Positions 1-37,708 of a stretch of 37,708 nucleotides of DNA are shown here, one piece after another. The stretch's first letter is position 1. The number at the start of each line of letters is the position of its first letter. The DNA lies in IMG/VR virus record IMGVR_UViG_3300026255_000014, positions 1 to 37,708 of that record. One strand, given 5' to 3'. The notes under the pieces are model-generated. The model was not told the DNA's origin, searched no databases, and worked only from the letters and a program-made list of their open reading frames with translations. The DNA is from a virus. Position numbers and translations under genes: made by a program.

Positions 1-312
1 CCGTTTTGTGGGAGGACACCGAATCCAGACTGGACTGATGAGAGCTACATAGAGTGTACAAATCGTAAATGTTCTCTTTATGGTTATGGAATGAGTACAG
101 GCGACTGGAACACCCGCCCAATTGAGGATGACCTTCGCAAGCGCATTGCCGAGTTGGAGGCGCTTGTTAATGTGTCGGAAGGTCTTTACGAGCGTATCTA
201 TGAGCAAGCAGCCCGCATTGCCGAGCTGGAGGCGGAGATTGTCCAACTTACCGCTCACGATGCTACAGAGCGGCAAGATGATAAGTGGATACCGGAGGTG
301 CAGGATGTGTAA
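1..312 (+). CDS. Lar-like zinc-ribbon protein, 5' truncated by window edge; duplicate copy of 37306..37638
   Basis: ORF track 91..312 translation is identical to the C-terminal part of 37306..37638; the frame is open back to position 1. Confidence 0.5.
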   Translation, partial: PFCGRTPNPDWTDESYIECTNRKCSLYGYGMSTGDWNTRPIEDDLRKRIAELEALVNVSEGLYERIYEQAARIAELEAEIVQLTAHDATERQDDKWIPEVQDV

Positions 313-382
313 CTTTTTCAGTTTTGTAACAGACCCAGTGAATCACCCAGCGGAGTATTACTACTTCGACTGGGAATATCGC
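1..382. repeat. Terminal redundancy, left copy; identical to 37327..37708
   Basis: Direct comparison of the first and last 382 nt of the window shows identity; implies a unit genome of about 37,326 bp. Confidence 0.9.
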
Positions 383-1069
383 AAGGCGCACCTAAACGAC
401 GATGGAGTGGACAGCCATTCGCATATCTGTGCATACTACCTCCTCAACGAGGATAGATGTAACAAATATGAGTTCAATCCGCTGACTGGAAGATTTGATA
501 TTGACCAAATCAACTCGGAGCGTGATGATTCAAATGCTGCAGAAAAGTGGGCGAAACGGCAGGACTTCAAAGAGATTGTCGAGACACTTATTATCAAGCC
601 GATTGTCAAACCGTTTGAGTTGCCAAAGGTAGAACAAGTGACAGATGAACAAATTGGCTGGCTGAAGGAGTGGGCTTCGGTCAGGGATTTGGTCGGGGCT
701 TCGGTCTGGGCTTTGGTCGGGGATTCGGTCAGGGATTCGGTCTGGGCTTTGGTCGGGGTTTCGGTCAGGGATTTGGTCTTGGATTCGGTCAGGGATTTGG
801 TCGGGGCTTCGGTCTGGGCTTCGGTCAGGGCTTCGGTCAGGGATTTGGTCGGGGCTTCGGTCTGGGCTTCGGTCAGGGATTCGGTCTGGGCTTCGGTCTG
901 GGCATATATCAGCAGTTTTTTCGCCATCAACTACAAATACAACTTTTCGTCTGTAGCAAATCTTTGGAACGCAGGGCTTGTACCCTCATTTGACGGTGAG
1001 ACATGGCGGTTGCATAGCAGCGAGAATGCGGATGTGGTTTACGAGTGGACGCCGGAGGTGCAGGAATGA
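305..1069 (+). CDS. Hypothetical protein with internal tetrapeptide tandem-repeat array and C-terminal WTPEVQE tail
   Basis: Same frame as ORF 122..1069; likely start ATG 305 sits 5 nt after GGAGGTG and overlaps the upstream stop. Ends in the conserved junction CCGGAGGTGCAGGAATGA. Frame assignment through the repeat is ambiguous. Confidence 0.5.
   Translation: MCNFFSFVTDPVNHPAEYYYFDWEYRKAHLNDDGVDSHSHICAYYLLNEDRCNKYEFNPLTGRFDIDQINSERDDSNAAEKWAKRQDFKEIVETLIIKPIVKPFELPKVEQVTDEQIGWLKEWASVRDLVGASVWALVGDSVRDSVWALVGVSVRDLVLDSVRDLVGASVWASVRASVRDLVGASVWASVRDSVWASVWAYISSFFAINYKYNFSSVANLWNAGLVPSFDGETWRLHSSENADVVYEWTPEVQE
672..899. repeat. 19 tandem copies of a 12-bp unit GGGNTTYGGTCN
   Basis: Read directly from sequence. 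No stop codons in any forward frame, which is why ORFs 122..1069, 670..993 and antisense 436..930 all cross it. Confidence 0.9.
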
Positions 1070-2586: not shown

Positions 2587-2793
2587 ATGGGATTTTGGGA
2601 AGAGTTGTTTTATGTCATGAAAATAGGCACGGTGGTTACCGTGTGTGGGCTGTTGGCAAGTTTGCCGATAGCGTTTATAGTGCACCTCGCGATTGAAAGA
2701 GGGTCATGGTTGTTAGGTGTTCTGGCGTTCTTTGTACTTATAGCGATTGCGAGTATAGCGGTTGTTATCCAAGAACGGTTGGAGGCTGAATGA
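2587..2793 (+). CDS. Small membrane protein (two predicted TM helices)
   Basis: Hydrophobic segments VVTVCGLLASLPIAFIV and LLGVLAFFVLIAIASIAVV. Confidence 0.5.
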   Translation: MGFWEELFYVMKIGTVVTVCGLLASLPIAFIVHLAIERGSWLLGVLAFFVLIAIASIAVVIQERLEAE

Positions 2794-2993
2794 ACCTGAT
2801 TGATTTCCTAAGCGAAGAGGACGCGGAAAAGCGGATTGAGGTGCAAGAGCGAATTGACGATCTTAGTCGCATAGAGAGAGCGATGCTGCATTTGTGGGTG
2901 GAAGGGTACACCCAGGCAGAGATTGCGCACATGTTTGGTTACTCGCAAGCCAGAATAAGCCAAATACTCAATGCGATTTATAAAAGCTGCTGA
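2790..2993 (+). CDS. Putative HTH transcriptional regulator (sigma-70 region 4-like)
   Basis: C-terminal YTQAEIAHMFGYSQARISQIL resembles a sigma region 4 / LuxR-type helix-turn-helix. Confidence 0.45.
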   Translation: MNLIDFLSEEDAEKRIEVQERIDDLSRIERAMLHLWVEGYTQAEIAHMFGYSQARISQILNAIYKSC

Positions 2994-4236: not shown

Positions 4237-4584
4237 ATGGCTTATGCGCCAGCAAGACAATGTGTTGTGCCAGGATGTCCGAATCTTGTGACAGAGCCTG
4301 GTGTTAGCCGTTGTCCAGAACATCAAAAACAATACAAAAAAGAGTTGACAAGACCGCGTGATGTCAAATACACGAGTCAACGATGGCGCAAGACCTCGAA
4401 GGTGTTTTTGAGTCGCAATCCAATTTGTGAACGTTGTGGTGAGCCGAGTGAGATCGCACACCACATTATTCGTAAGCGTGATGACGGGGCAGACGACTTC
4501 GACAATCTGGAAGCACTTTGCCGAAAGTGTCATGAAGCCGAACATCATGCAAGCGGTGAAAGGTGGGGTAGGCGTGCGAGGTAG
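4237..4584 (+). CDS. HNH homing-type endonuclease
   Basis: CxxC...CxxC plus HH..RKRDDG...N...LC..CH arrangement typical of the HNH fold; canonical position just upstream of the terminase small subunit. Confidence 0.8.
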   Translation: MAYAPARQCVVPGCPNLVTEPGVSRCPEHQKQYKKELTRPRDVKYTSQRWRKTSKVFLSRNPICERCGEPSEIAHHIIRKRDDGADDFDNLEALCRKCHEAEHHASGERWGRRAR

Positions 4585-5071
4585 AACGCCATTGCCAGAT
4601 GCTTTGAAAGAAGCACAGGGAACGCTGAAGAAGAGCCGAGTAAATGACTCTCAGGCTCGTTTTGACGTACCTAAAGACTCACCGAAACCGCCGACAACGC
4701 TCAATCTCTATGGCAAGCGGTTGTGGAAAGAAATGCTGCCAAAGTTGGTTGAAACAGGTCTTTATACCGAAGGTGATCACCAGGCGTTTGAATTGCTTTG
4801 CATGGCTTATGGTGATCTGATTCAGGCACGCAAAGACCTTAAAGAGTCGGGTACGATTGTTATCACAGACAAGGGCACGGTTTATCAGCACCCTAACGTT
4901 GGGATCGCAAACCAGGCTTGGAATCGGGTGAAACTGATGTTGGGGCAGTTTGGGCTGACACCAGCAGAGCGGACACGAGTAAAAGCACGCTCACCCGAAG
5001 AGAAAAGGGGCAGTTTGGCAGAATCGTTGTTTGCTGCTGCACGTGAAAAGGTTGAGGGTGAGACTGAGTGA
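4574..5071 (+). CDS. terS: Terminase small subunit (P27-family-like)
   Basis: Motif GQFGLTPAERTRVKA and N-terminal RGRTPLP resemble P27-family TerS. Start uncertain: GTG 4574 follows an AGGTGGGG SD; ATG 4547 and 4532 are in-frame alternatives. Confidence 0.7.
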   Translation: MRGRTPLPDALKEAQGTLKKSRVNDSQARFDVPKDSPKPPTTLNLYGKRLWKEMLPKLVETGLYTEGDHQAFELLCMAYGDLIQARKDLKESGTIVITDKGTVYQHPNVGIANQAWNRVKLMLGQFGLTPAERTRVKARSPEEKRGSLAESLFAAAREKVEGETE

Positions 5072-6375
5072 GTGCAAATCTGTATTTAGGTGACTGTCTG
5101 GAAGTCTTATCAACGCTTGAAGCGGATAGCATTGACACCTGCATCACTGACCCGCCTTACGAGTTAGGTTTCATGGGTAAGAAGTGGGATTCAAGCGGCA
5201 TTGCGTTCCAGCCTGAAACTTGGCAAGCCGTATTCAGGGTGCTGAAACCAGGTGCAATTCTGCTTGCCTTCGGCGGCACTCGCACCTATCACCGCATTGC
5301 TTGCGCTATTGAGGACGCTGGCTTTGAAATCCGTGACACTATCGCTTGGGTATACGGGAGCGGATTCCCTAAAAGTTACGACATAAGTAAGGGAATTGAC
5401 AAACAAGCTGGAGCTGAAAGGGAAATAGTAGGCTACAAGGAAACATCAACTTATCCAGATAGCGATGGTGTTGCTCATTACAAAAACAGGCAACAAAGCA
5501 ATGGTTCTCAAGTCAATACAGGAGGTATGCCAGAAATCACCGCGCCCTCCACCCCCGAAGCGCAACTCTGGGATGGCTGGGGCACGGCGTTGAAGCCTGC
5601 CTTTGAGCCGATAGTTGTTGCGATGAAGCCGATTGACGGCACGTTTGTCAACAACGCGCTCACTTGGGGCGTGGCTGGCTTGTGGATTGACGGGGGTAGG
5701 GTGGGGACGTCAAAAAACGTTCCTGCATCACCAAGCGATAAAGGCACTCTGCAATGTAAAGGTTTGGGCGGTGGATGGGATAGAAGCGGAATGAATCCGA
5801 ACATTGGTCGCTTCCCTGCCAACTTGATTCACGACGGCTCGGATGAGGTGGTGAGTGGGTTTCCGAATACTACGAGCGGCAAGGTTGCGGCTGGAACTAT
5901 GCGAGGCTTGAAAAGCAATCACAATGTGGCATACGCAGACATCGCCGCCGGAACTGAATTGACTGGCTACGGCGACTCTGGCTCAGCCGCGCGCTTTTTC
6001 TACTGTGCGAAAGCCAGCCGAAGCGAGCGCAACGCTGGGCTGGAGGGGATGGAAGAAAAGGTCGGCGGTGGAATGAAGGGCACGGAAGACCAAACGCTTT
6101 TGACTGGCTCTGGAAACATCCGCAACAATAAAATGCAAAACCACCATCCCACCGTCAAGCCAATCGAACTGATGCGCTACCTTGTTCGGCTTACCAAAAC
6201 GCCAACAGGCGGGGTGGTACTTGACCCGTTCATGGGGTCTGGCACGACTGGCATTGCTTGCGTGTTGGAAGGACGCGAGTTTATCGGAATTGAGCGGGAA
6301 GCGGAGTATGTCGAGATTGCAGAAAAGCGGATTGCGCATTACAGGTTGCCGATATTGGAAGAAGTGATCGAGTGA
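5068..6375 (+). CDS. DNA methyltransferase (N6-adenine/N4-cytosine, beta-class order)
   Basis: N-terminal DPPY (ITDPPYELGF) and C-terminal AdoMet motif LDPFMGSGTTGIA. Confidence 0.85.
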   Translation: MSANLYLGDCLEVLSTLEADSIDTCITDPPYELGFMGKKWDSSGIAFQPETWQAVFRVLKPGAILLAFGGTRTYHRIACAIEDAGFEIRDTIAWVYGSGFPKSYDISKGIDKQAGAEREIVGYKETSTYPDSDGVAHYKNRQQSNGSQVNTGGMPEITAPSTPEAQLWDGWGTALKPAFEPIVVAMKPIDGTFVNNALTWGVAGLWIDGGRVGTSKNVPASPSDKGTLQCKGLGGGWDRSGMNPNIGRFPANLIHDGSDEVVSGFPNTTSGKVAAGTMRGLKSNHNVAYADIAAGTELTGYGDSGSAARFFYCAKASRSERNAGLEGMEEKVGGGMKGTEDQTLLTGSGNIRNNKMQNHHPTVKPIELMRYLVRLTKTPTGGVVLDPFMGSGTTGIACVLEGREFIGIEREAEYVEIAEKRIAHYRLPILEEVIE

Positions 6376-8966
6376 AAAAGTACGATCCCTGGAATTGCGA
6401 CCTTGATAAGTACGAATTTGACCCTGTGGCTGGGCAGGTTGCAGTCGACTTTATTGAAAATTATATTACCCATGTCAAAGGGGAGTTAGGCGGCAAGCCT
6501 TTTTTGCTTTTGGAGTGGGAAAAGGATTTTGTAAGAAACCTTTTCGGTTGGAAAGAAAAGGAAACAGGTTATCGGCGTTACCGTGAGGCGTTTGTATTTG
6601 TGGCACGGAAAAATGGCAAAGCATTAGAAGTCAATACTCCGATTCTGACTACTACAGGTTGGAAGAAACACGGCGATTTAGTCCCTGGAGACTTTGTTTT
6701 TTCTCCTGATGGCGTACCCGCAAAGGTTATCTATTCTACTCCTCATTATGAGGGGAATTGTTATTTTGTGGATTTCTCAGGCGATGAAGCAATTATCGCT
6801 CACGAAAATCACGAATGGAAAACTAACCGCACCTGGTATACAGGAAAGCCCAAATGGATAGAAGGTGAAAAGCCTTTGGTTACCACTAAGCGGATTGCGG
6901 AAACTCTACGATGTGGGAAACGCCAAGACCTTGTGCATTCTGTGGATGTTGCGAAACCGATACAGTTTGAGCCAAAAGAATACACAATACCCCCGTATGT
7001 TTTAGGCGTTTGGCTTGGCGATGGCGACTCTGACAGTTGCAGGATCACGATTGCAGAACCTGAAATTGTCCAGAAGCTATCTGATTATGGTTATCCAGCC
7101 GAATATAGATCAAGATACCGACACCTTGTTGGACGGGGGAAGTTTCAAAAGCAACTGCGTGAAAAGGGCTTACTGGGCAATAAGCATATACCACAAGAAT
7201 ACTTGCTTGGTTCAGTTGAGCAAAGGATCGACCTCTTGCGCGGATTGATGGACACAGACGGTTATGTGTCTTCGGCTGGACAATGCGGAATTGCATTAAC
7301 CGACGGTAATTTGTTTCGCCAAGTTGTCGAATTAATTACAGGCTTGGGATTAAAGCCTCGCGTAATGATTGATCGTGCTCAGTTAAATGGGGTTGACTGC
7401 GGAGTTAGATATAGAGTCCACTTCTATGCCTATCAAGACACGCCAATAGCATATATTGAGCGAAAAGCCAAACGGCAAAAAGAAACTCCAAAAACAAGGC
7501 GGCGCAGCCAGACTCGGATGATTTCAAATGTTACGCCCGCAGGTAAGCAAACAGTCAACTGCATCACAGTCGAAGGCGGGATGTATCTCGCAGGAAAGCA
7601 ACTTATCCCAACTCACAACTCACCTCTTGGGGCTGCCATCGCGCTTTATCTGTTGATTGTAGACAATGAGCCTGGTGCAGAGTTGATCTCTGTAGCAGCA
7701 GACCGAGACCAGGCACGGGCGATTTTTGACACGGCTCGTTTTATGGTAAAGCAAAACGCCGCCCTGGACGAATTGGTTAGTGCATATCGAAATGCGATTG
7801 TCGCTAAGCAAGGGGCTTCAGTTTACAAAGTTGTTTCATCGGATGCTGGCACTAAGCATGGTGGAAACTTACATGCTGCGCTTTTTGACGAGTTGCACGC
7901 TCAGAAGAACCGAGACCTTTACGATGTTGTGCAAACCAGTTTTGGCGCGCGCCGTCAACCACTGCTGATTTCTTTTAGTACGGCAGGGTTTGATCGTGAG
8001 TCGATCTGCTATGAAGTTTACTCAATGGCAAAGCAGATTTCTGAGGGCATAATCCAGCGAGATTGGTTTTACCCCGTAATATACGAGGCATCGCCAGAAG
8101 ACGATTGGACAAGCGAAGATACGTGGAAGAAAGCCAATCCGAGTTTGGGACACTCGATCAAGATTGATTACCTGCAGAAGAATTATGAAAAGGCTCTATC
8201 AAGCCCGCAGTTCCAAAACACTTTCAAGCGTTTGTATCTCAATATGTGGACATCGGCAGAAACACGCTGGCTTGATATGCAAAACTGGGACAAATGCGGT
8301 GAGCAACCGATTGACATGGGACTGCTTGAAGGGGCTGAATGTTACGGCGGTCTTGACCTTGCGACAGTTTCTGACATTGCTGCTTTTGTACTGGATTTCC
8401 CGAATGAAAGCGGTGAAGAGGAATTGCACACCTGGCTTCCGACCTTGTTCTGTCCAGAGTCAAAGTTGACCGACCCAGGTTTCATTGACCGCGACATTTA
8501 CAGGGCTTGGGCTGACCAGGGCTATTTGATTGCAACGCCTGGAAACGTGATTGACTACGAGTACATCATTGCTGAAATTGAGCGATTAGGTGAACTTTAC
8601 AACATTAAAGAGATCGCATTTGACCGTTGGGGTGCTGCACAGATTTCACAAACGCTTACCAATATGGGCTTTACTTTGGTTGGTTTTGGTCAAGGGTACG
8701 TGAGCATGTCACCACCCACAAAAGAAGTTGAGCGGTTGATATTACAAGGCAGGGTGAGACATGGAAACCACCCTGTAATGCGTTGGATGGCGGATAACGT
8801 TATGGTTACGACTGACCCTGCAGGGAATATCAAGCCAGACAAGAAGAAAAGCAGGCAGAAGATTGACGGCGTGGTTGCGGCAATCATGGCAACCGATAGG
8901 GCAATTAGAAATTCTGTAGGTCGCAAGGACTCTGTTTACGAAAAAAGAGGGTTGGTTGTTCTATGA
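6372..8966 (+). CDS. terL: Terminase large subunit, interrupted by an in-frame intein
   Basis: 864 aa; removing residues 84..416 yields the P-loop ARKNGKS and a Walker B-like LLIVDNE with a C-terminal nuclease-like domain. GTG start overlaps the upstream stop. Confidence 0.9.
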   Translation: MKKYDPWNCDLDKYEFDPVAGQVAVDFIENYITHVKGELGGKPFLLLEWEKDFVRNLFGWKEKETGYRRYREAFVFVARKNGKALEVNTPILTTTGWKKHGDLVPGDFVFSPDGVPAKVIYSTPHYEGNCYFVDFSGDEAIIAHENHEWKTNRTWYTGKPKWIEGEKPLVTTKRIAETLRCGKRQDLVHSVDVAKPIQFEPKEYTIPPYVLGVWLGDGDSDSCRITIAEPEIVQKLSDYGYPAEYRSRYRHLVGRGKFQKQLREKGLLGNKHIPQEYLLGSVEQRIDLLRGLMDTDGYVSSAGQCGIALTDGNLFRQVVELITGLGLKPRVMIDRAQLNGVDCGVRYRVHFYAYQDTPIAYIERKAKRQKETPKTRRRSQTRMISNVTPAGKQTVNCITVEGGMYLAGKQLIPTHNSPLGAAIALYLLIVDNEPGAELISVAADRDQARAIFDTARFMVKQNAALDELVSAYRNAIVAKQGASVYKVVSSDAGTKHGGNLHAALFDELHAQKNRDLYDVVQTSFGARRQPLLISFSTAGFDRESICYEVYSMAKQISEGIIQRDWFYPVIYEASPEDDWTSEDTWKKANPSLGHSIKIDYLQKNYEKALSSPQFQNTFKRLYLNMWTSAETRWLDMQNWDKCGEQPIDMGLLEGAECYGGLDLATVSDIAAFVLDFPNESGEEELHTWLPTLFCPESKLTDPGFIDRDIYRAWADQGYLIATPGNVIDYEYIIAEIERLGELYNIKEIAFDRWGAAQISQTLTNMGFTLVGFGQGYVSMSPPTKEVERLILQGRVRHGNHPVMRWMADNVMVTTDPAGNIKPDKKKSRQKIDGVVAAIMATDRAIRNSVGRKDSVYEKRGLVVL
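6621..7619 (+). mobile_element. Intein (333 aa) with LAGLIDADG homing endonuclease domain inside the TerL Walker A motif
   Basis: Begins ALEVNTPILT, contains LGVWLGDGDS and LLRGLMDTDGYV, ends ...LIPTHN followed by Ser; splicing restores ARKNGK|SPLG. Confidence 0.8.
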
Positions 8967-30188: not shown

Positions 30189-31493
30189 ATGAGCGAAACC
30201 GCTTTGATCGACAATATCTCAAGAGAGATATTTGAAGGTAATGGAAACGCACAAGAGAAACTACGTAGAATATATGGTAAAGAACTAAACTATACCAACG
30301 CCAAAAAATACTTGGCTGGGATAAAACTGCACCTGAACACGGTCAAGGGCTTAGACAAAAACCAACAAACTTTTGGTACATCGAAAGAGATCAGTTTCAA
30401 TGCTGACAAAAGTCAAACCGTAAAACAAGACGTTTACCTGACACCGGACGAGGCAGCCGATCCTTCAAAGATAATGCGGAGGATGGGCTTTGATCCTTTG
30501 TTATGGGAAGTTATAACCTGCAACGTGATCAGCGGATCGTGGGATGTTACGATCAAGAACGAAGCCTATGAGGGCGTGAAATACACGAACCAAAAATACT
30601 CGATAAAGTTGACCGTGAAACCGTTGGGGGGCAACCTGACGTTTCCACAAGTGCTGAGTGCTTTCAAGGAACTGCAACCTGCCAAAGTTATCGAGTACGA
30701 CTACGAACCGATTGTAACAGGAAAAGGGCTTTTGTTTGAACTGCCAATTATGGATTTCCACTTAGGCAAACTCGCCTGGTCTGGCGAAACAGGCGATGAT
30801 GATTATGATCTGAAAGCCGCTGCAAAGTTGTGGAAGAAAACTGTAGACGATCTGATAGACAAGGCTTGCAGCTTTGGCGAGATTGAGAAAATATTGTTTC
30901 CAGTTGGGCAAGACTATTTTCATTTTGACACGCCAACGGTTACTACAACCGCTGGAACTCAACTCGATTCTGACACACGTTGGCAGAAGATGTTTAGCAA
31001 AGGCGTGGAGTTGTTGGTTTGGGCGGTAGAGCAATTGAGAAAGATTGCGCCAGTTGAAGTATTGTGGATTCCAGGCAACCACGATCAGATGTTATCTTAT
31101 GCGGCAACTGTGGGCTTGGCTCAACGGTATGCAGAAACTAAAAGCGTAAAGGTGGACTTGAGCGCAACCCCCAGGAAGTATCGCTTGTTTGGAAATAGCC
31201 TTATCGGATATTCTCACGGCGAAAAAGAAGGCAAGCGGCTGGAGGGGCTTATGCAGATTGAAGCACCTGAACTTTGGGGTGATTCTATCTTCAGGGAATT
31301 TCATATGGGGCATTTGCACACTGAATCAACCGTCACAAAAAACGGTATCGTGTTTCGCAGGATCAGTGCGATCACCGCACCCAATGCCTGGCACGTGGAA
31401 AATGGTTTCATTGGCAGTGTACGACAGGCGCAAGCGTTTATGTGGGATAAGGAACGCGGCTTGCAAGCTATCTTGAATAGTAATGTGAGGTAA
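30189..31493 (+). CDS. Calcineurin-like metallophosphoesterase-like protein
   Basis: Ordered motifs DFHLG, GQDYFHFD, GNHD, YSHGE, GHLH resemble the metallophosphatase signature. Confidence 0.5.
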   Translation: MSETALIDNISREIFEGNGNAQEKLRRIYGKELNYTNAKKYLAGIKLHLNTVKGLDKNQQTFGTSKEISFNADKSQTVKQDVYLTPDEAADPSKIMRRMGFDPLLWEVITCNVISGSWDVTIKNEAYEGVKYTNQKYSIKLTVKPLGGNLTFPQVLSAFKELQPAKVIEYDYEPIVTGKGLLFELPIMDFHLGKLAWSGETGDDDYDLKAAAKLWKKTVDDLIDKACSFGEIEKILFPVGQDYFHFDTPTVTTTAGTQLDSDTRWQKMFSKGVELLVWAVEQLRKIAPVEVLWIPGNHDQMLSYAATVGLAQRYAETKSVKVDLSATPRKYRLFGNSLIGYSHGEKEGKRLEGLMQIEAPELWGDSIFREFHMGHLHTESTVTKNGIVFRRISAITAPNAWHVENGFIGSVRQAQAFMWDKERGLQAILNSNVR

Positions 31494-31494
31494 T

Positions 31495-31713
31495 ATGCCC
31501 GTCTACGTTTACCATTGTGACAATTGCCTGAAGCAGACCGAGATATTTCAACACTTCACCGATGACCCGATAACCGTGTGCCCTGAGTGTAAACAGCCGA
31601 CTTTGCAGAAAGTGTATCAGGTTGCGAACGTGCATTACAAGGGCAATGGCTTCTATGTCACGGATAAACGAGGGGCTGAACAAGTGTCGGGGGAGTCTTC
31701 GGACAACTCATAA
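31495..31713 (+). CDS. FmdB-family-like zinc-ribbon protein
   Basis: MPVYVYHCDNC...CPEC...GNGFYVTD matches the FmdB-type zinc ribbon pattern. Confidence 0.65.
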   Translation: MPVYVYHCDNCLKQTEIFQHFTDDPITVCPECKQPTLQKVYQVANVHYKGNGFYVTDKRGAEQVSGESSDNS

Positions 31714-31742
31714 CGCGGGGGCAGTACCCGCCAGCTCCACTA

Positions 31743-31780
31743 AAAGAGCACCAGCTAAATTGTAGGTGCTCTTTCGTTTT
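31743..31780 (+). terminator. Rho-independent terminator closing the late operon
   Basis: AAAGAGCACC-loop-GGTGCTCTTT followed by CGTTTT. Confidence 0.7.
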
Positions 31781-31781
31781 A

Positions 31782-31855
31782 AGTATTGTATTCGAGTATT
31801 GTAATTAAGTATTGTAAGACGCATCCCATTTTAAGTATTGATTTCAGGTATTGTA
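31782..31855. repeat. Five direct copies of RGTATTGW (AGTATTGTA core), iteron-like
   Basis: Copies at about 31782, 31795, 31808, 31834, 31847. Confidence 0.7.
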
Positions 31856-32029
31856 ACGCCTTCTTCTGCCATTGCCTTATCAAGCAGGTTGCGTAGAGTA
31901 CGGCTGATCCCCTGTGGCTGTGACGTAAAAAAAGGGGGTAAAAACAGGGGTTATTATAATATCGCATAATTACACCTTATTATAATACAACGCTTATTTT
32001 AGGGGTATTTTATCGCTTGCAATGGCCAC

Positions 32030-32101
32030 GGGTTCAGGGTTCAGGGTTCAGGGGTTCACGATCTCAGGGTTCAGGGTTCAGCGTCCAGGGGTAGGGGGGG
32101 G
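32030..32101. repeat. Tandem GGGTTCA heptamer array ending in a G8 run
   Basis: GGGTTCA x3, GGGGTTC, gap, GGGTTCA x2, degenerate copies, then GGGGTAGGGGGGGG. Confidence 0.85.
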
Positions 32102-32214
32102 CGAAATCTCTACCGCGCAAGCCCCCCGAGCGCGCGCGTAATCTTAGGCACGCGAGGGCAAATATCCGACAGGGGGTTAATCTTACCAATTATTCAAGAA
32201 ATCCCGAAAAACAC

Positions 32215-32242
32215 TTGACTTTTGCTTTAATTTGTGTATAAT
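32215..32242 (+). promoter_or_regulatory. Sigma-70-type promoter, near consensus (probable early promoter)
   Basis: TTGACT (32215..32220), 16-nt spacer, TATAAT (32237..32242); RBS TAAGGAGC and ATG at 32284 downstream. Confidence 0.65.
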
Positions 32243-32283
32243 TCAGGTGTAGTAAAGTAATTCACACAAAGATAAGGAGCAAA

Positions 32284-32475
32284 ATGTTTGACACGCAAGA
32301 AATCTATTTATCCCGATTAGAACCACAAGAAGAAGAAATTGTCACTTGCCCACATTGCGAAAGTTATCTCGTTGAGCATCAGGACAATTTCACCTACGTC
32401 TGCCTGGATTGTCTGCAAGAGTTCAGCATCCACCCGATGGCAGATGACGACTCAATACCGTTTCGAAAGGAGTAA
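32284..32475 (+). CDS. Small zinc-ribbon protein (first early gene)
   Basis: CPHC...CLDC motifs; strong promoter and RBS upstream. Confidence 0.6.
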   Translation: MFDTQEIYLSRLEPQEEEIVTCPHCESYLVEHQDNFTYVCLDCLQEFSIHPMADDDSIPFRKE

Positions 32476-32477
32476 CG

Positions 32478-32594
32478 ATGTTAGACCAACTTTTTGATTT
32501 CATAGTAGGATTCGGAATTATCTGCATACCGATGATGATCGGCGCAGTTGTGGCCGGCATCATCGAGACAAGACGTGAGCGGAGGGGAAGATGA
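32478..32594 (+). CDS. Small hydrophobic peptide (38 aa)
   Basis: Hand-translated MLDQLFDFIVGFGIICIPMMIGAVVAGIIETRRERRGR; AAGGAG 7 nt upstream; below the ORF-track size cut-off. Confidence 0.4.
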   Translation: MLDQLFDFIVGFGIICIPMMIGAVVAGIIETRRERRGR

Positions 32595-32683
32595 CCGCAC
32601 TCGGAATTGACATGAGCAGCCGTGATGCAGGTGGGGGTACTCGCCAGCGCAATCTATGAGAAGTGGCAGGAAAGAAGGGCTAA

Positions 32684-33031
32684 ATGAAGGAAATATCGGC
32701 CTATAAATGCGGTTACTGCAAAAGAATATACCAGTTCCAGCGCAACGCTCAGAAGCATGAGGCAGTATGCCATTATAACCCGTCTATGCGCTCATGCTTT
32801 ACTTGTGGGCTGTTTGTTCGTGAAGCAGACATCTCAGACTATGATGGCGAGTTTGTTCCATCTGCCCGATGCGAAAAAGGGTTTGATATAGATGAACCAT
32901 TTGACCACATAAGGCTTGCGCAAGTCGGTTGCAAGTTTTGGGAGCCAAGAGAAAACCACCCAGGCGAGTATGTGAAGTTTAGAACTGGCTTTGGTGGATA
33001 CAGAAAGCTTTATGAGGAGAGCAAGAAATGA
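32684..33031 (+). CDS. Cysteine-rich hypothetical protein
   Basis: ORF track; CGYC, C..C pairs. Confidence 0.5.
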   Translation: MKEISAYKCGYCKRIYQFQRNAQKHEAVCHYNPSMRSCFTCGLFVREADISDYDGEFVPSARCEKGFDIDEPFDHIRLAQVGCKFWEPRENHPGEYVKFRTGFGGYRKLYEESKK

Positions 33032-33300
33032 CCGTACTCGGAATCAACGTAACAGACAGAGATCCAGACTTATTTTATTGGCCAAAGCCTAACTGGCACG
33101 GCAAACCTGCAGAGTTGTTGAGAGTTGAAAGCAAGATTGAAGATCTGTGGGAGTGTTACGGAAAAAAGTGTGACATTATCCCGTTGCCGAATATCGAACT
33201 TGACGAGCTATTAGACGAAATTGATCACCTGGAAAAAATCAAAACAAGATTATGGAACGAATGGCAACACTTAGAAACAGAAAAGGAGCTAACACAATGA
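33028..33300 (+). CDS. Hypothetical protein
   Basis: ORF track; ATGA overlaps at both ends. Confidence 0.5.
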   Translation: MTVLGINVTDRDPDLFYWPKPNWHGKPAELLRVESKIEDLWECYGKKCDIIPLPNIELDELLDEIDHLEKIKTRLWNEWQHLETEKELTQ

Positions 33301-33953
33301 ACAAGTCAGAATCAATTCAGAACTTATCAGCAGCCTTATCGAAGGCGCAAGCGGAAATGCCTGCTATCAAGTTTGACAGCAAAAATCCGTTTCTCAAAAA
33401 CGACTACGCCAGTTTAGGCGCAATCATAGCGGGGGCGCGACCCGTACTCGCGAAGCACGGCCTCTCGGTAGCACAACTCACTTTTGGCGAAGATGGTGTG
33501 GCTGGAGTCGAGACCGTACTCATGCACGCTTCCGGCGAATGGATCAGTAACTCTATCTCAATGCCTATTGGCGAAGAGAAGGGCAAGTCATCCGCGCAGG
33601 TTGCAGGTTCTATTGTAACGTATCTTCGCCGGTACAGCCTGGCTTCAATACTGGGTATCTATTCAGACGAAGACGGTGACGGCAATAAGCCAGAGCCAAC
33701 GCGCAAGCCAACCAGAACAAAGCCAGAAGCTCAAGCCAACGATGACATCATGACTATCGAGCGAGCATCAAAAGTCACGAACAGCAAAGGCACGCCTTAC
33801 GTTGACATCGCAAGTGACGTGTTGCAACGAATGGTGATCGGCATCAATAAGGGTTTGCAGAACAGCGCGGATGACGAAAAACGAGCCGAGTATCTCGAAA
33901 AGAAACAGGCTATTGGCGTGATATTGAAGGCACGCGCAGACAAGTCAATTTGA
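33297..33953 (+). CDS. ERF-family single-strand annealing protein
   Basis: Motif SAQVAGSIVTYLRRYSLASILGI and overall pattern typical of ERF recombinases; ATG 33297 inside ORF 33252..33953. Confidence 0.7.
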   Translation: MNKSESIQNLSAALSKAQAEMPAIKFDSKNPFLKNDYASLGAIIAGARPVLAKHGLSVAQLTFGEDGVAGVETVLMHASGEWISNSISMPIGEEKGKSSAQVAGSIVTYLRRYSLASILGIYSDEDGDGNKPEPTRKPTRTKPEAQANDDIMTIERASKVTNSKGTPYVDIASDVLQRMVIGINKGLQNSADDEKRAEYLEKKQAIGVILKARADKSI

Positions 33954-36755: not shown

Positions 36756-37124
36756 ATGAGTAAAGAGTTCAAAATAAATCTTCTCGAAGAAATGGATTTG
36801 CTTTATGCCAAGATACACAGACTCGAAGACGTTTGTGAACAGGCGAACATTATGCTGAATCAGCGAGATGAAATCGAAGAGGGGCTCAACAAGCGCATTG
36901 CCGAGTTTGAGGAAAAGCAACGCTGGCGTGTTGTTGCAGATGGAGAGTTGCCGGAGGTGTATCGGGATGAAGACGGCGAATTTATACCCTTTCTTGTTTG
37001 CGAAGGAGACGGAGACCGCCCATTCATAGCAATGTATGGCGGTAAAAACTGGCATGCTGGAATATTTGTGCCTGACATCACCCACTGGATGCCCTTGCCA
37101 GAATTGCCGGAGGTGCAGGAATGA
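36756..37124 (+). CDS. DUF551-like protein
   Basis: C-terminal HWMPLPELP resembles the DUF551 signature; ends in the conserved PEVQE junction. Confidence 0.5.
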   Translation: MSKEFKINLLEEMDLLYAKIHRLEDVCEQANIMLNQRDEIEEGLNKRIAEFEEKQRWRVVADGELPEVYRDEDGEFIPFLVCEGDGDRPFIAMYGGKNWHAGIFVPDITHWMPLPELPEVQE

Positions 37125-37309
37125 GCGACATTAAAGAGTATCAGTCAGATTCAATAGTTTGCGATTTGTGTAATGGAAAAGGAAATATATTGATGACCTT
37201 CCATGATTGGATTTTAGATGAAACGCGCACGGAAGTGAGTACCTGTATCCGTTGTAAAGGCAAGGGCTTCTTGCATGATGGCAAACAGCCGCCGGAGGTG
37301 CAGGAATGA
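37121..37309 (+). CDS. Small zinc-ribbon protein
   Basis: CDLCNGKG...CIRCKGKG; ends in the PEVQE junction. Confidence 0.55.
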   Translation: MSDIKEYQSDSIVCDLCNGKGNILMTFHDWILDETRTEVSTCIRCKGKGFLHDGKQPPEVQE

Positions 37310-37638
37310 ACACGCTTAAACCCTGTCCGTTTTGTGGGAGGACACCGAATCCAGACTGGACTGATGAGAGCTACATAGAGTGTACAAATCGTAAATGTTC
37401 TCTTTATGGTTATGGAATGAGTACAGGCGACTGGAACACCCGCCCAATTGAGGATGACCTTCGCAAGCGCATTGCCGAGTTGGAGGCGCTTGTTAATGTG
37501 TCGGAAGGTCTTTACGAGCGTATCTATGAGCAAGCAGCCCGCATTGCCGAGCTGGAGGCGGAGATTGTCCAACTTACCGCTCACGATGCTACAGAGCGGC
37601 AAGATGATAAGTGGATACCGGAGGTGCAGGATGTGTAA
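37306..37638 (+). CDS. Lar-family-like zinc-ribbon protein (putative restriction alleviation), paralog A
   Basis: Same N-terminal zinc ribbon and coiled coil as 1066..1395; complete copy of the gene truncated at 1..312. Confidence 0.6.
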   Translation: MNTLKPCPFCGRTPNPDWTDESYIECTNRKCSLYGYGMSTGDWNTRPIEDDLRKRIAELEALVNVSEGLYERIYEQAARIAELEAEIVQLTAHDATERQDDKWIPEVQDV

Positions 37639-37708
37639 CTTTTTCAGTTTTGTAACAGACCCAGTGAATCACCCAGCGGAGTATTACTACTTCGACTGGG
37701 AATATCGC
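37327..37708. repeat. Terminal redundancy, right copy; identical to 1..382
   Basis: Direct sequence identity. Confidence 0.9.
37631..37708 (+). CDS. 5' end of the tandem-repeat protein gene (duplicate of 305..382), truncated by window end
   Basis: Identical to 305..382. Confidence 0.45.
   Translation, partial: MCNFFSFVTDPVNHPAEYYYFDWEYR

What the first reader, a model, noticed from the sequence alone, without database searches (positions are those of the whole stretch)
32215..32283. Near-consensus sigma-70 promoter driving the early operon
TTGACT, 16-nt spacer and TATAAT, followed by a strong RBS and the first of a run of small zinc-ribbon genes. This is likely the early promoter and a defined genome starting point.
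Basis: seen in the sequence. Interest (0 to 1): 0.4.

Follow-up and report, generated by a model that had tools for sequence, protein, structure and literature searches.

The report
Early promoter of an uncultured phage
The motif is real and is very probably the host-RNA-polymerase promoter that starts the replication and recombination ("early") genes of an uncultured tailed phage; it is an ordinary kind of element, and probably not the physical start of the genome.

Summary
TTGACT (32215-32220), a 16-nt spacer, TATAAT (32237-32242), AAGGAG (32274-32279) and ATG (32284) are all present.

The window is a complete phage contig: 37,326 unique bp plus a 382-bp terminal overlap, with every gene on the + strand. 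The motif lies in the only large non-coding gap (31714-32283). An intrinsic terminator sits upstream. A Zn-ribbon gene and the Erf, methyltransferase, replication-initiator and SSB genes follow.

An 11/12 match is unremarkable genome-wide (0.47 expected). In this gap on this strand it is unlikely (P about 0.005).

Comparative evidence decides the matter:
- Relatives with unrelated flanking DNA keep the same hexamers and spacing in front of gp1 homologues.
- A second lineage has an 89%-identical core in front of a different first gene.
- Perfect 12/12 sites occur four times on the coding strand of relatives, against 0.14 expected.

The claim of a "defined genome starting point" is not supported. 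The contig is circular or concatemeric, and the adjacent HNH and terminase genes point to ends near 4.5 kb.

This is a new member of a known kind, of low interest in itself. Two by-products are more interesting. A 71-nt tmRNA-like domain with no tag-coding (mRNA-like) part lies at 31672-31742. In one relative, an AcrIC5 homologue occupies the first-gene position.

The parts
31672..31742 (+). Adjacent element, not part of the promoter: a 71-nt tmRNA-like tRNA-like domain with no mRNA-like domain. It has a 7-bp acceptor stem with an invariant G3.U pair, a hairpin capped by UUCG, a T arm GCGGG[GGCAGUA]CCCGC, and an ACUA end. It overlaps the last 42 nt of the Zn_ribbon_8 ORF.
   Evidence: Rfam gives only a weak alpha_tmRNA hit (23.1 bits; gathering score 50) over the T arm and the acceptor 3' strand. 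The MFE fold gives the acceptor stem, the hairpin and the T arm. Homologues occur in L121, L128, L009 and L123. Five of 20 pairs show compensatory changes, and the slid controls show none at slides of 1.
31743..31780 (+). Intrinsic terminator closing the long late (structural, lysis, exonuclease) transcription unit: a 10-bp perfect stem AAAGAGCACC/GGTGCUCUUU, a 12-nt loop, then CGUUUU.
   Evidence: inverted repeat I5. Analogous hairpins with a TTTTCGTT tail occur at the same relative place in L121, L009 and L128.
31782..31856 (+). Direct repeats of RGTATTGTAA with 13-nt start-to-start spacing between neighbouring copies (three exact copies, one with 1 mismatch, and one degenerate copy). Function unknown; they could be origin iterons or regulator binding sites.
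   Evidence: These are the only exact or 1-mismatch + strand copies clustered anywhere in the window. Relatives carry different repeats at the equivalent place (TAATCGAC in L121).
31952..31987 (.). AT-rich segment with two copies of TTATTATAATA (palindromic core ATTATAAT), 27 bp apart.
   Evidence: inverted repeat I1. No -35 partner, so not scored as a promoter.
32030..32092 (+). GGGTTCA heptad array, followed by a G8 tract. It is G-quadruplex-capable on the coding strand. The copy number is lower in L046 and the array is absent in L041.
   Evidence: It is not needed for the promoter module, because L041 lacks it.
32088..32214 (+). Conserved upstream block that travels with the promoter and gp1 in variant phages (L041, L046, L048). 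It includes an A-tract (GAAAAAC) and the CnC just before the -35.
   Evidence: 77-89% identity in the matches that include it, whereas DNA further upstream is unrelated. No significant RNA structure on either strand. A C at position -3 before the -35 is invariant in the 12 stacked promoters.
32215..32220 (+). -35 hexamer TTGACT (5 of 6).
   Evidence: Kept as TTGACT, TTGACA or TTGACC in 13 related promoters.
32221..32236 (+). 16-nt spacer.
   Evidence: The same 16-nt length occurs with different sequence in L121 and L128. In the L013 type it is 75% identical.
32237..32242 (+). -10 hexamer TATAAT (6 of 6).
32247..32251 (+). Predicted transcription start, 5-9 nt after the -10. G32249 is the best guess, and it is A in the variants L041, L046 and L048.
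   Evidence: Inference from the usual sigma-70 geometry. The G/A polymorphism is seen. Not measured.
32274..32279 (+). Shine-Dalgarno sequence AAGGAG, 4 nt before the ATG, in a predicted unstructured leader.
   Evidence: leader fold -3.1 kcal/mol, z = +1.5. GGAGG or AAGGAG precedes many other genes in the window.
32284..32475 (+). First gene of the operon: a 63-aa CxxC...CxxC Zn-ribbon protein of unknown function.
   Evidence: Its 90%-identity cluster has 72 members. Wherever upstream DNA is available, an 11/12 promoter precedes it.

Best explanation
This is a functional promoter recognised by the host RNA polymerase carrying its housekeeping (sigma-70/SigA-type) sigma factor.

Proposed mechanism:
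- Transcription starts about 7 nt after the -10 element, near 32249.
- The transcript has an unstructured leader of about 35 nt with a strong SD.
- It reads rightward through gp1 (a Zn-ribbon protein), Erf, an MT-A70 methyltransferase, a DnaD-like replication initiator, SSB and many small genes.
- The phage encodes no RNA polymerase, so the first transcripts after DNA entry must come from such a host-type promoter.
- The terminator at 31743-31780 insulates the promoter from the late unit upstream.
- In a cos-joined or concatemeric genome, the same direction of transcription runs on into the packaging and structural genes. A small Sigma70_r4-like protein (2790-2993) may help there.

Shown: the motif, its unique position, the terminator, the SD, and conservation of the promoter across lineages.
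Inferred: the start site, the early timing, and the identity of the sigma factor.
For: (1) The motif matches 11/12 and is the only such site in the window.
(2) It lies on the coding strand of the only large non-coding gap of a genome whose genes all run one way. The chance of such a match in that gap is 0.0046.
(3) Upstream is a 10-bp terminator hairpin with a U-tract. Downstream are an unstructured leader, AAGGAG and ATG.
(4) The genes downstream are typical early or middle functions: Erf, a methyltransferase, a replication initiator and SSB. The genes upstream are structural, lysis and exonuclease genes.
(5) Phylogenetic footprint, part one. L121/L122 and L128 have the same architecture (last late gene, a gap of about 590 bp, then gp1). 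Their gap DNA is non-homologous, yet they carry TTGACT-16-TATAAT 40-51 nt before the gp1 start.
(6) Phylogenetic footprint, part two. The L013-type lineage has aaaaacacTTGACAtttgctttaaagtatgTATAAT. This is 89% identical over 36 nt, with unrelated flanks and a different first gene.
(7) Phylogenetic footprint, part three. L041, L046 and L048 keep the core 100% identical while upstream DNA is replaced.
(8) L123, L124, L126, L004, L009, L026, L012 and L014 have 11-12/12 sites followed by SD and a start codon at 22-50 nt.
(9) Perfect 12/12 sites in non-redundant relatives number 4 on the + strand and 0 on the - strand, against 0.14 expected. None of 300 shuffles reached 4.
(10) In L009 the site faces a divergent XRE-HTH gene, a PR-like layout.
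Against: There are no transcript data, and the host is unknown. The only host hints are two short contigs binned into Chloroflexota MAGs, so recognition by a sigma-70-type factor is inferred from the motif itself.

Genome-wide, one 11/12 site is expected by chance in 37% of shuffles.

Among relatives, the count of sites with at least 11/12 matches on the + strand (9) is not significantly above shuffles (5.5 +/- 2.2). Only the 12/12 class and the positional evidence are significant.

The spacer is 16 nt rather than the optimal 17, and the -35 ends in T.

No regulator of the promoter was identified in the window.
Confidence: 0.82

Rival explanations
1. The promoter is real, but its main role is as a strongly expressed, regulator-controlled immediate-early cassette for anti-defence or host-takeover genes, of the acr-aca type. 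gp1 would then be such a gene, and the site would not simply be the general early promoter.
For: The position just after the promoter is a variable slot. It holds gp1 in the window, L121 and L128. It holds RHH-like proteins in L004, L009, L013, L012 and L120. It holds unrelated small proteins in L123, L126, L014 and L026. In L124 it holds a 119-aa protein with an AcrIC5 domain (Pfam 84 bits, E = 8e-24), immediately followed by a gp1 homologue. Strong, near-consensus acr promoters repressed by Aca proteins are documented (PMC6765145; PMC9410906). Conserved early-promoter motifs have been used to find anti-defence genes (PMC11065993).
Against: gp1 matches no Acr or other anti-defence family. The window has no RHH or HTH regulator gene near the promoter. 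The same transcript continues into core replication genes, so this reading refines the main explanation rather than replacing it.
Confidence: 0.2
2. A chance consensus match with no promoter function; early transcription starts elsewhere in the gap.
For: One site with at least 11/12 matches per genome is expected in 37% of shuffles. Simple consensus scans find as many promoter-like sites as shuffles do. Enrichment of sites with at least 11/12 matches among relatives is not significant.
Against: The positional probability is 0.0046. No other candidate in the gap matches at least 10/12. The hexamers and spacing are conserved in lineages whose gap DNA is otherwise unrelated. The core is 89% identical in the L013 type. 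12/12 sites are enriched on the coding strand only.
Confidence: 0.04
3. The site marks the physical start of the packaged genome (a cos or pac end, or a terminal repeat). The G-rich repeats upstream would be the packaging signal.
For: It is the only large non-coding region, and it contains several repeat arrays. All genes read away from it.
Against: The contig closes on itself with a 382-bp overlap lying inside paralogous genes. A 46,103-bp assembly spans the region and covers the genome 1.24 times. Ten independent contigs run through the gap without a break. HNH (47 bits), TerS and TerL are adjacent at 4237-8966, which is the usual place of cos in HNH-dependent phages (from memory of HK97-type systems). 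The heptad array varies in copy number or is absent in close variants.
Confidence: 0.05
4. The gap is mainly the replication origin (iterons plus an AT-rich segment). The promoter would serve chiefly to activate the origin by transcription, as lambda PR does for ori.
For: Direct repeats of RGTATTGTAA and an AT-rich palindromic segment lie 230-430 bp upstream. A DnaD-like initiator is encoded in the operon. Relatives have lineage-specific repeats at the same place.
Against: The promoter points away from the repeats. No binding data exist. Repeats of this kind could equally be regulator sites. This reading does not conflict with the early-promoter function.
Confidence: 0.15

Closest known systems
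Early promoters of lambdoid and HK97-like siphoviruses (for example lambda PR)
   Same: A host sigma-70-type -35/-10 promoter at the head of the replication and recombination genes. It follows the end of the late region and reads towards cos. In the relative L009 it is divergent from an XRE-type repressor gene, as PR is from PRM/cI.
   Different: The window has no repressor, cro-like or integrase gene. No operator was identified. The 2-mismatch iteron-like sites over the start site are not above chance. The first gene is a Zn-ribbon protein rather than a Cro or RHH regulator.
Strong near-consensus early promoters of virulent coliphages (T7 A1-A3, T5 early promoters)
   Same: A near-consensus hexamer pair used by unmodified host polymerase immediately after DNA entry, in a genome whose genes all run in one direction.
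   Different: Those promoters sit at the injected end of a linear genome, and in T7 there are several in tandem. Here there is a single site, about 9.7 kb from the inferred cos, in a siphovirus-type genome. Its strength has not been measured, and the spacer is 16 nt.
acr-aca anti-CRISPR operon promoters (for example acrIF8-aca2 of phage ZF40; PMC6765145)
   Same: A promoter with a consensus -10 drives small variable genes at the very start of infection. In relative L124 the first gene carries an AcrIC5 domain. Many relatives have an RHH-like first gene that could act as an Aca-like autorepressor.
   Different: In the window there is no recognisable Acr or Aca gene and no inverted-repeat operator. 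The transcript continues into core replication genes rather than being a short two-gene operon.

Membership tests
Housekeeping-sigma (sigma-70/SigA) -35/-10 promoter | -35 hexamer close to TTGACA | tested here: met
   TTGACT at 32215-32220, 5 of 6.
Housekeeping-sigma (sigma-70/SigA) -35/-10 promoter | -10 hexamer close to TATAAT, including A2 and T6 | tested here: met
   TATAAT at 32237-32242, 6 of 6.
Housekeeping-sigma (sigma-70/SigA) -35/-10 promoter | Spacer of 16-18 nt | tested here: met
   The spacer is 16 nt. The same length is kept in L121, L128, L013, L009 and L012.
Housekeeping-sigma (sigma-70/SigA) -35/-10 promoter | Lies in non-coding DNA upstream of a co-oriented gene | tested here: met
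   It lies in the 570-bp gap 31714-32283, with the first start codon 41 nt after the -10.
Housekeeping-sigma (sigma-70/SigA) -35/-10 promoter | Hexamers conserved in relatives beyond the flanking sequence | tested here: met
   The excess of 12/12 sites on the coding strand is.
Housekeeping-sigma (sigma-70/SigA) -35/-10 promoter | Primary transcript 5' end 5-9 nt downstream of the -10; open-complex formation by holoenzyme | not testable with these tools
   No transcript or biochemical data are available, and the host is not cultured or identified.
Phage early promoter | Active immediately after infection, without phage-made factors | not testable with these tools
   Inferred only. The phage has no RNA polymerase gene, and the genes downstream are replication and recombination genes.
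acr-aca type anti-defence operon promoter | A recognisable anti-CRISPR gene directly downstream | tested here: not met
   gp1 and its neighbours match no Acr family in Pfam or PHROGs. The feature is met only in relative L124 (AcrIC5, 84 bits).
acr-aca type anti-defence operon promoter | An Aca-type HTH or RHH regulator in the operon and its operator at the promoter | tested here: not met
   The window has no HTH or RHH gene after the promoter. There is no inverted repeat of at least 9 nt over the promoter.
TLD-only tmRNA (mycobacteriophage DS6A type; PMC4131195, PMC11915505) - for the adjacent element 31672-31742 | A 7-bp acceptor stem with a G3.U70 pair, and a T arm | tested here: met
   Both stems are 100% paired in 5 sequences, 3 of their pairs covary, and the G.U pair is invariant.
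TLD-only tmRNA (mycobacteriophage DS6A type; PMC4131195, PMC11915505) - for the adjacent element 31672-31742 | No anticodon arm and no tag reading frame or pseudoknots between the two halves | tested here: met
   Only a hairpin capped by UUCG (20 nt) and short linkers lie between the acceptor 5' strand and the T arm. ARAGORN calls no tRNA or tmRNA.
TLD-only tmRNA (mycobacteriophage DS6A type; PMC4131195, PMC11915505) - for the adjacent element 31672-31742 | Reaches a curated tmRNA model score | tested here: not met
   The best Rfam hit is alpha_tmRNA at 23.1 bits against a gathering score of 50, covering only the T arm and the acceptor 3' strand. This is expected for a molecule lacking most of the model.
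TLD-only tmRNA (mycobacteriophage DS6A type; PMC4131195, PMC11915505) - for the adjacent element 31672-31742 | Alanylation, SmpB binding or inhibition of trans-translation; sequence homology to DS6A | not tested

The most novel reading that the evidence does not exclude
The promoter heads a fast-evolving anti-defence 'first-gene slot'. On this reading the conserved promoter (CnC-TTGAC(A/T)-16/17-TATAAT, with an AATTGG motif upstream) is a portable cassette. Different phages of this group use it to express whatever small host-takeover gene sits first: AcrIC5 in one relative, RHH regulators in others. The 63-aa Zn-ribbon protein gp1, which directly follows AcrIC5 in L124 and is first in the window, would be a new anti-CRISPR or anti-restriction protein. 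Together with the TLD-only tmRNA 500 bp upstream, the gap would then be a hub of host-interference functions.
Probability: 0.2. Interest if true: 0.55.

Novelty: new member of a known kind. Interest (0 to 1): 0.22.

Why it matters
By itself this is a routine annotation: it fixes where early transcription starts in an uncultured bioreactor siphovirus.

It is useful in three practical ways:
- It shows that this phage group, and so its unidentified host, uses canonical TTGACA/TATAAT promoters and SD-led translation. That excludes hosts that use neither.
- The conserved promoter gives a handle for finding immediate-early genes, possibly anti-defence genes, in related metagenomic phages. One relative has an AcrIC5 homologue in the first position.
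- It orients the transcription map. The early genes read towards the HNH and terminase junction, so late transcription probably needs joined genome ends.

Tried and rejected
- BLASTN of 31400-33400 against 50,697 GenBank phages found no match. TerL matches cultured phages only below 60% identity, so no annotated relative could be used.
- Enrichment of sites with at least 11/12 matches in relatives was not significant (9 against 5.5 +/- 2.2). AT-rich loci inflate the expectation, so I replaced this with the 12/12 test.
- Iteron-like sites over the start site (32246 and 32251, 2 mismatches each): there are 71 such 2-mismatch sites in the window against 52 expected, so I do not treat them as an operator.
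- A possible remnant HTH gene on the minus strand (31835-31950; 'GISRTLRNLLDKAMAEEG') has no start codon and no homologue in any locus. Rejected.
- GGGTTCA heptads: an IMG/VR scan found 62 places. Most lie inside long open frames, and none has a near-consensus promoter within 400 bp. This gave no insight.
- Rfam at gathering threshold and ARAGORN on the whole window found nothing.
- Folding of the conserved block 32085-32214 on either strand was no better than shuffles.
- Looser pattern scans for more copies of the tmRNA-like element returned only chance hits.
- Host assignment: a 95%-identical portal fragment lies on a 4.5-kb contig binned to an Anaerolineaceae MAG. A member of the exonuclease's 90%-identity cluster lies on a 3.2-kb contig binned to a Dehalococcoidales MAG. 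These are too short and weakly binned to rely on.

Full report
1. Observation

The sequence reads TTGACT (32215-32220), tttgctttaatttgtg (16 nt) and TATAAT (32237-32242). There follow 31 nt of leader, AAGGAG (32274-32279), caaa, and ATG at 32284. This is the only site in the window that matches at least 11 of the 12 consensus positions, on either strand. The first ORF (63 aa) has CPHC...CLDC and only sub-threshold Zn-ribbon hits.

2. Is it more than chance?

Taken alone, it is not. Dinucleotide-preserving shuffles of the 37,326-bp unique genome give 0.47 such sites, and 37% of shuffles have at least one. The general promoter scan finds no more promoter-like sites than shuffles do. What is improbable is the place. 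Within the 570-bp non-coding gap on the coding strand, only 0.46% of shuffles have one.

3. Context

The window is a complete phage contig. Bases 1-382 equal 37327-37708. All credible genes are on the + strand.

The gene order is as follows:
- From 32284: small genes, then Erf, an MT-A70 methyltransferase, a DnaD-like replication initiator and SSB.
- Then many small proteins, including paralogous Lar-like Zn-ribbon genes and a Sigma70_r4-like protein of 67 aa at 2790-2993.
- Then HNH endonuclease (4237-4584), TerS, a methyltransferase, TerL, portal, major head protein, tape measure, tail fibres and endolysin.
- Finally a Methyltransf_24 protein, an Mre11/SbcD-like exonuclease and a Zn_ribbon_8 protein ending at 31713.

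No RNA polymerase, integrase or repressor was seen. The only large gap is 31714-32283. Gene callers of ten independent assemblies also leave it empty, and its sequence is identical in all ten.

Directly after the last late gene lies a 10-bp perfect hairpin followed by CGUUUU (31743-31780), which is an intrinsic terminator. The predicted leader from about 32249 is unstructured. SD motifs of the GGAGG or AAGGAG type precede many genes, so the host uses SD-led initiation.

4. Comparative evidence

No cultured phage is close. I used the exonuclease as bait, then exact DNA patterns, then contigs that encode gp1 variants. These searches gave relatives from IMG/VR and from metagenomes; one source record is titled 'bioreactor metagenome'.

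(a) L041, L046 and L048 share 32088-32283 plus gp1 with the window. The promoter core is 100% conserved, and the only change in the leader is G32249A, at the predicted start. DNA upstream of about 32088 (L041) or about 31912 (L046) is unrelated, which marks a mosaic joint.

(b) L121/L122 and L128 have the same architecture: last late gene, tmRNA-like element, terminator, lineage-specific repeats, promoter, gp1. Their gap DNA is not alignable with the window's apart from the tmRNA-like element at its 5' edge. Even so they carry cccTTGACT-16-TATAAT 40-51 nt before the gp1 start, with different spacer sequences.

(c) The L013-type lineage (seven contigs) has aaaaacacTTGACAtttgctttaaagtatgTATAAT. 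This is 89% identical to the window over 36 nt. The flanks are unrelated and the first gene is different and RHH-like.

(d) L123, L124, L126, L004, L009, L026, L012 and L014 have 11-12/12 sites followed by SD and a start codon at 22-50 nt.

(e) Perfect 12/12 sites occur 4 times on the coding strand of 239 kb of non-redundant relatives and never on the other strand. The expectation is 0.14, and none of 300 shuffles reached 4. The looser class of at least 11/12 matches is not significantly enriched.

(f) Stacking 12 promoters shows an invariant C three bases before the -35 hexamer, a near-invariant C one base before it, and frequent TTTG at the start of the spacer. With L128 added, AATTGG or CCAATT lies within 50 nt upstream in 9 of 13 promoters, against a 3.4% background. 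Part of this is shared ancestry.

In L009 the promoter faces a divergent XRE-HTH gene, which is a PR-like arrangement.

5. Mechanism

The best-supported reading is a housekeeping-sigma promoter that fires on the incoming DNA and transcribes the replication and recombination genes. The terminator insulates it from the late unit. These points are shown: the motif, its position, the terminator, the SD and the conservation. These are inferred: the start site (about 32249), the early timing, the sigma factor and the promoter strength. The 16-nt spacer and the T at the last -35 position are slightly suboptimal, but the 16-nt spacing is itself conserved.

6. The 'genome starting point'

This claim is not supported. 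The contig is closed by an overlap that falls inside paralogous genes. A 46,103-bp assembly covers the genome 1.24 times, and no assembly breaks in the gap. The adjacent HNH, TerS and TerL genes suggest HK97-like cos ends near 4.5 kb. This is an inference from the known HNH-dependent packaging systems, recalled from memory. If it is right, the early genes occupy the right arm and read towards cos, and transcription of the late genes from this side needs joined ends.

7. The variable first gene

The position immediately after the promoter differs between relatives:
- gp1 in the window, L121 and L128.
- RHH-like proteins in L004, L009, L013, L012 and L120.
- Unrelated small proteins in L123, L126, L014 and L026.
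- In L124, a 119-aa protein whose residues 59-110 match Pfam AcrIC5 (84 bits, E = 8e-24), directly followed by a gp1 homologue.

Strong consensus-like promoters controlled by Aca repressors are typical of anti-CRISPR operons (PMC6765145; PMC9410906). Conserved early-promoter motifs have been used to predict anti-defence genes (PMC11065993). This makes gp1 a guilt-by-association candidate and nothing more. It matches no known family.

8. By-product: a tmRNA-like domain

A permissive Rfam search of the gap hit alpha_tmRNA weakly: 23.1 bits against a gathering score of 50, with E = 1.3e-5 in 111 nt. Inspection shows a 71-nt element at 31672-31742, made up of:
- the acceptor 5' strand GGGGCUG;
- a 10-nt linker;
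- a hairpin closed by UUCG;
- the T arm GCGGG[GGCAGUA]CCCGC;
- the acceptor 3' strand CAGCUCC, then ACUA.

There is no anticodon arm and no tag reading frame. Homologues sit at the same place in L121/L122, L128, L009 and L123. In L009 and L123 they are fully intergenic.

On five sequences, the acceptor and T stems are 100% paired and the G3.U pair is invariant. Five of 20 pairs show compensatory changes, whereas structures slid by 1 column show none. Only about three lineages are independent, so this is good but not overwhelming support.

A 'TLD only' tmRNA has been recorded once before in a phage, mycobacteriophage DS6A. Similar molecules inhibit tmRNA, perhaps by titrating SmpB (PMC4131195; PMC11915505).

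An attP core for integration into host ssrA is the main rival explanation. The covarying 5' strand and the lack of an integrase argue against it.

9. Verdict

The finding is correct as an observation and mostly correct as an interpretation, but it is an ordinary element: a new member of the well-known class of host-type early phage promoters. Interest is low for the promoter itself. The neighbouring tmRNA-like RNA and the AcrIC5-linked first-gene slot deserve separate follow-up.

Noticed in passing
window 31672-31742 (+); homologues at L121:51-121, L009:8369-8439, L123:616-686 and L128 (minus strand; 5099-5169 on its reverse complement): A 71-nt tmRNA-like tRNA-like domain with no mRNA-like part. 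It has an acceptor stem with an invariant G3.U pair, a hairpin capped by UUCG, and a T arm with loop GGCAGUA. It lies just before the late terminator. Compensatory changes occur in 5 of 20 pairs. It resembles the 'TLD only' tmRNA of mycobacteriophage DS6A, which is thought to inhibit trans-translation by titrating SmpB. ARAGORN and Rfam gathering thresholds both miss it.
   Followed up: partly
L124:449-808 (a relative; JGI 3300010365 Ga0116251_10242390): The first gene after the homologous promoter encodes a 119-aa protein with an RHH-like N-terminus and a C-terminal AcrIC5 anti-CRISPR domain (Pfam 84 bits). A gp1 homologue directly follows it. This suggests that the hosts carry type I-C CRISPR-Cas and that the first-gene slot is an anti-defence locus.
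   Followed up: partly
window 32030-32101: A (GGGTTCA)n heptad array followed by GGGGTAGGGGGGGG, G-quadruplex-capable on the coding strand, 115-185 bp upstream of the promoter. Copy number differs in L046 and the array is absent in L041. An IMG/VR scan for the heptad gave only unrelated, mostly coding, hits.
   Followed up: partly
window 31782-31856: Direct repeats of RGTATTGTAA with 13-nt start-to-start spacing between neighbouring copies (three exact, one with 1 mismatch, one degenerate). They are the only such cluster in the genome. Relatives have different repeats (TAATCGAC, TTCACTTTATCG) at the same relative position. They may be origin iterons or regulator sites.
   Followed up: partly
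13 related promoters, -50 to -1 before the -35 hexamer (window 32182-32214): Conserved features outside the hexamers: an invariant C at -3 and a near-invariant C at -1 before the -35 (CnCTTGAC), spacers that often start TTTG, and AATTGG/CCAATT within 50 nt upstream in 9 of 13 promoters (3.4% background). In six promoters AATTGG starts 17-19 nt before the -35 hexamer. This could be a regulator or UP-like site.
   Followed up: partly
window 2790-2993 (+): A 67-aa protein that matches Pfam Sigma70_r4 above the curated cut-off (30.4 bits against 24.1). It is encoded just before the membrane-protein, HNH and terminase block. It is a candidate late-gene activator, or a competitor for the -35 element.
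   Followed up: no
window 1-382 = 37327-37708; also 1087-1386 and the gene junctions at 1037-1080, 37106-37135 and 37277-37320: The 382-bp terminal overlap falls inside a family of paralogous small Zn-ribbon (Lar-like) genes. These genes share near-identical segments and a repeated junction GCCGGAGGTGCAGGAATGA (C-terminal PEVQE plus the next start codon). This looks like a recombination-prone tandem gene family.
   Followed up: no
window 637-948 (+): Eighteen tandem copies of a 12-nt unit inside the ORF that ends at 1069. They encode a 4-residue repeat (SVRD/SVWA type).
   Followed up: no
window 6372-8966 (+): TerL is unusually long at 864 aa. It aligns end to end (31.6% identity, 99% coverage) with mycobacteriophage terminases, but to a Streptococcus phage TerL only in two pieces (71% coverage). 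This suggests an extra N-terminal or inserted domain.
   Followed up: no
L038 (JAQVUC010000125.1) and the exonuclease cluster member MFA7218788.1: A portal fragment 95% identical to the window's lies on a contig binned to an Anaerolineaceae MAG. A member of the exonuclease's 90%-identity cluster lies on a contig binned to a Dehalococcoidales MAG. Both contigs are under 5 kb. This is a weak hint of a Chloroflexota host.
   Followed up: no
ENA ERZ773285 NODE_1410 (46,103 bp; L115): This assembly carries the same phage over 1.24 genome lengths (25010 through the junction to 33786 in window coordinates). Several independent contigs end inside the Erf gene (window about 33290-33790), which suggests a strain-variable joint there.
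   Followed up: no
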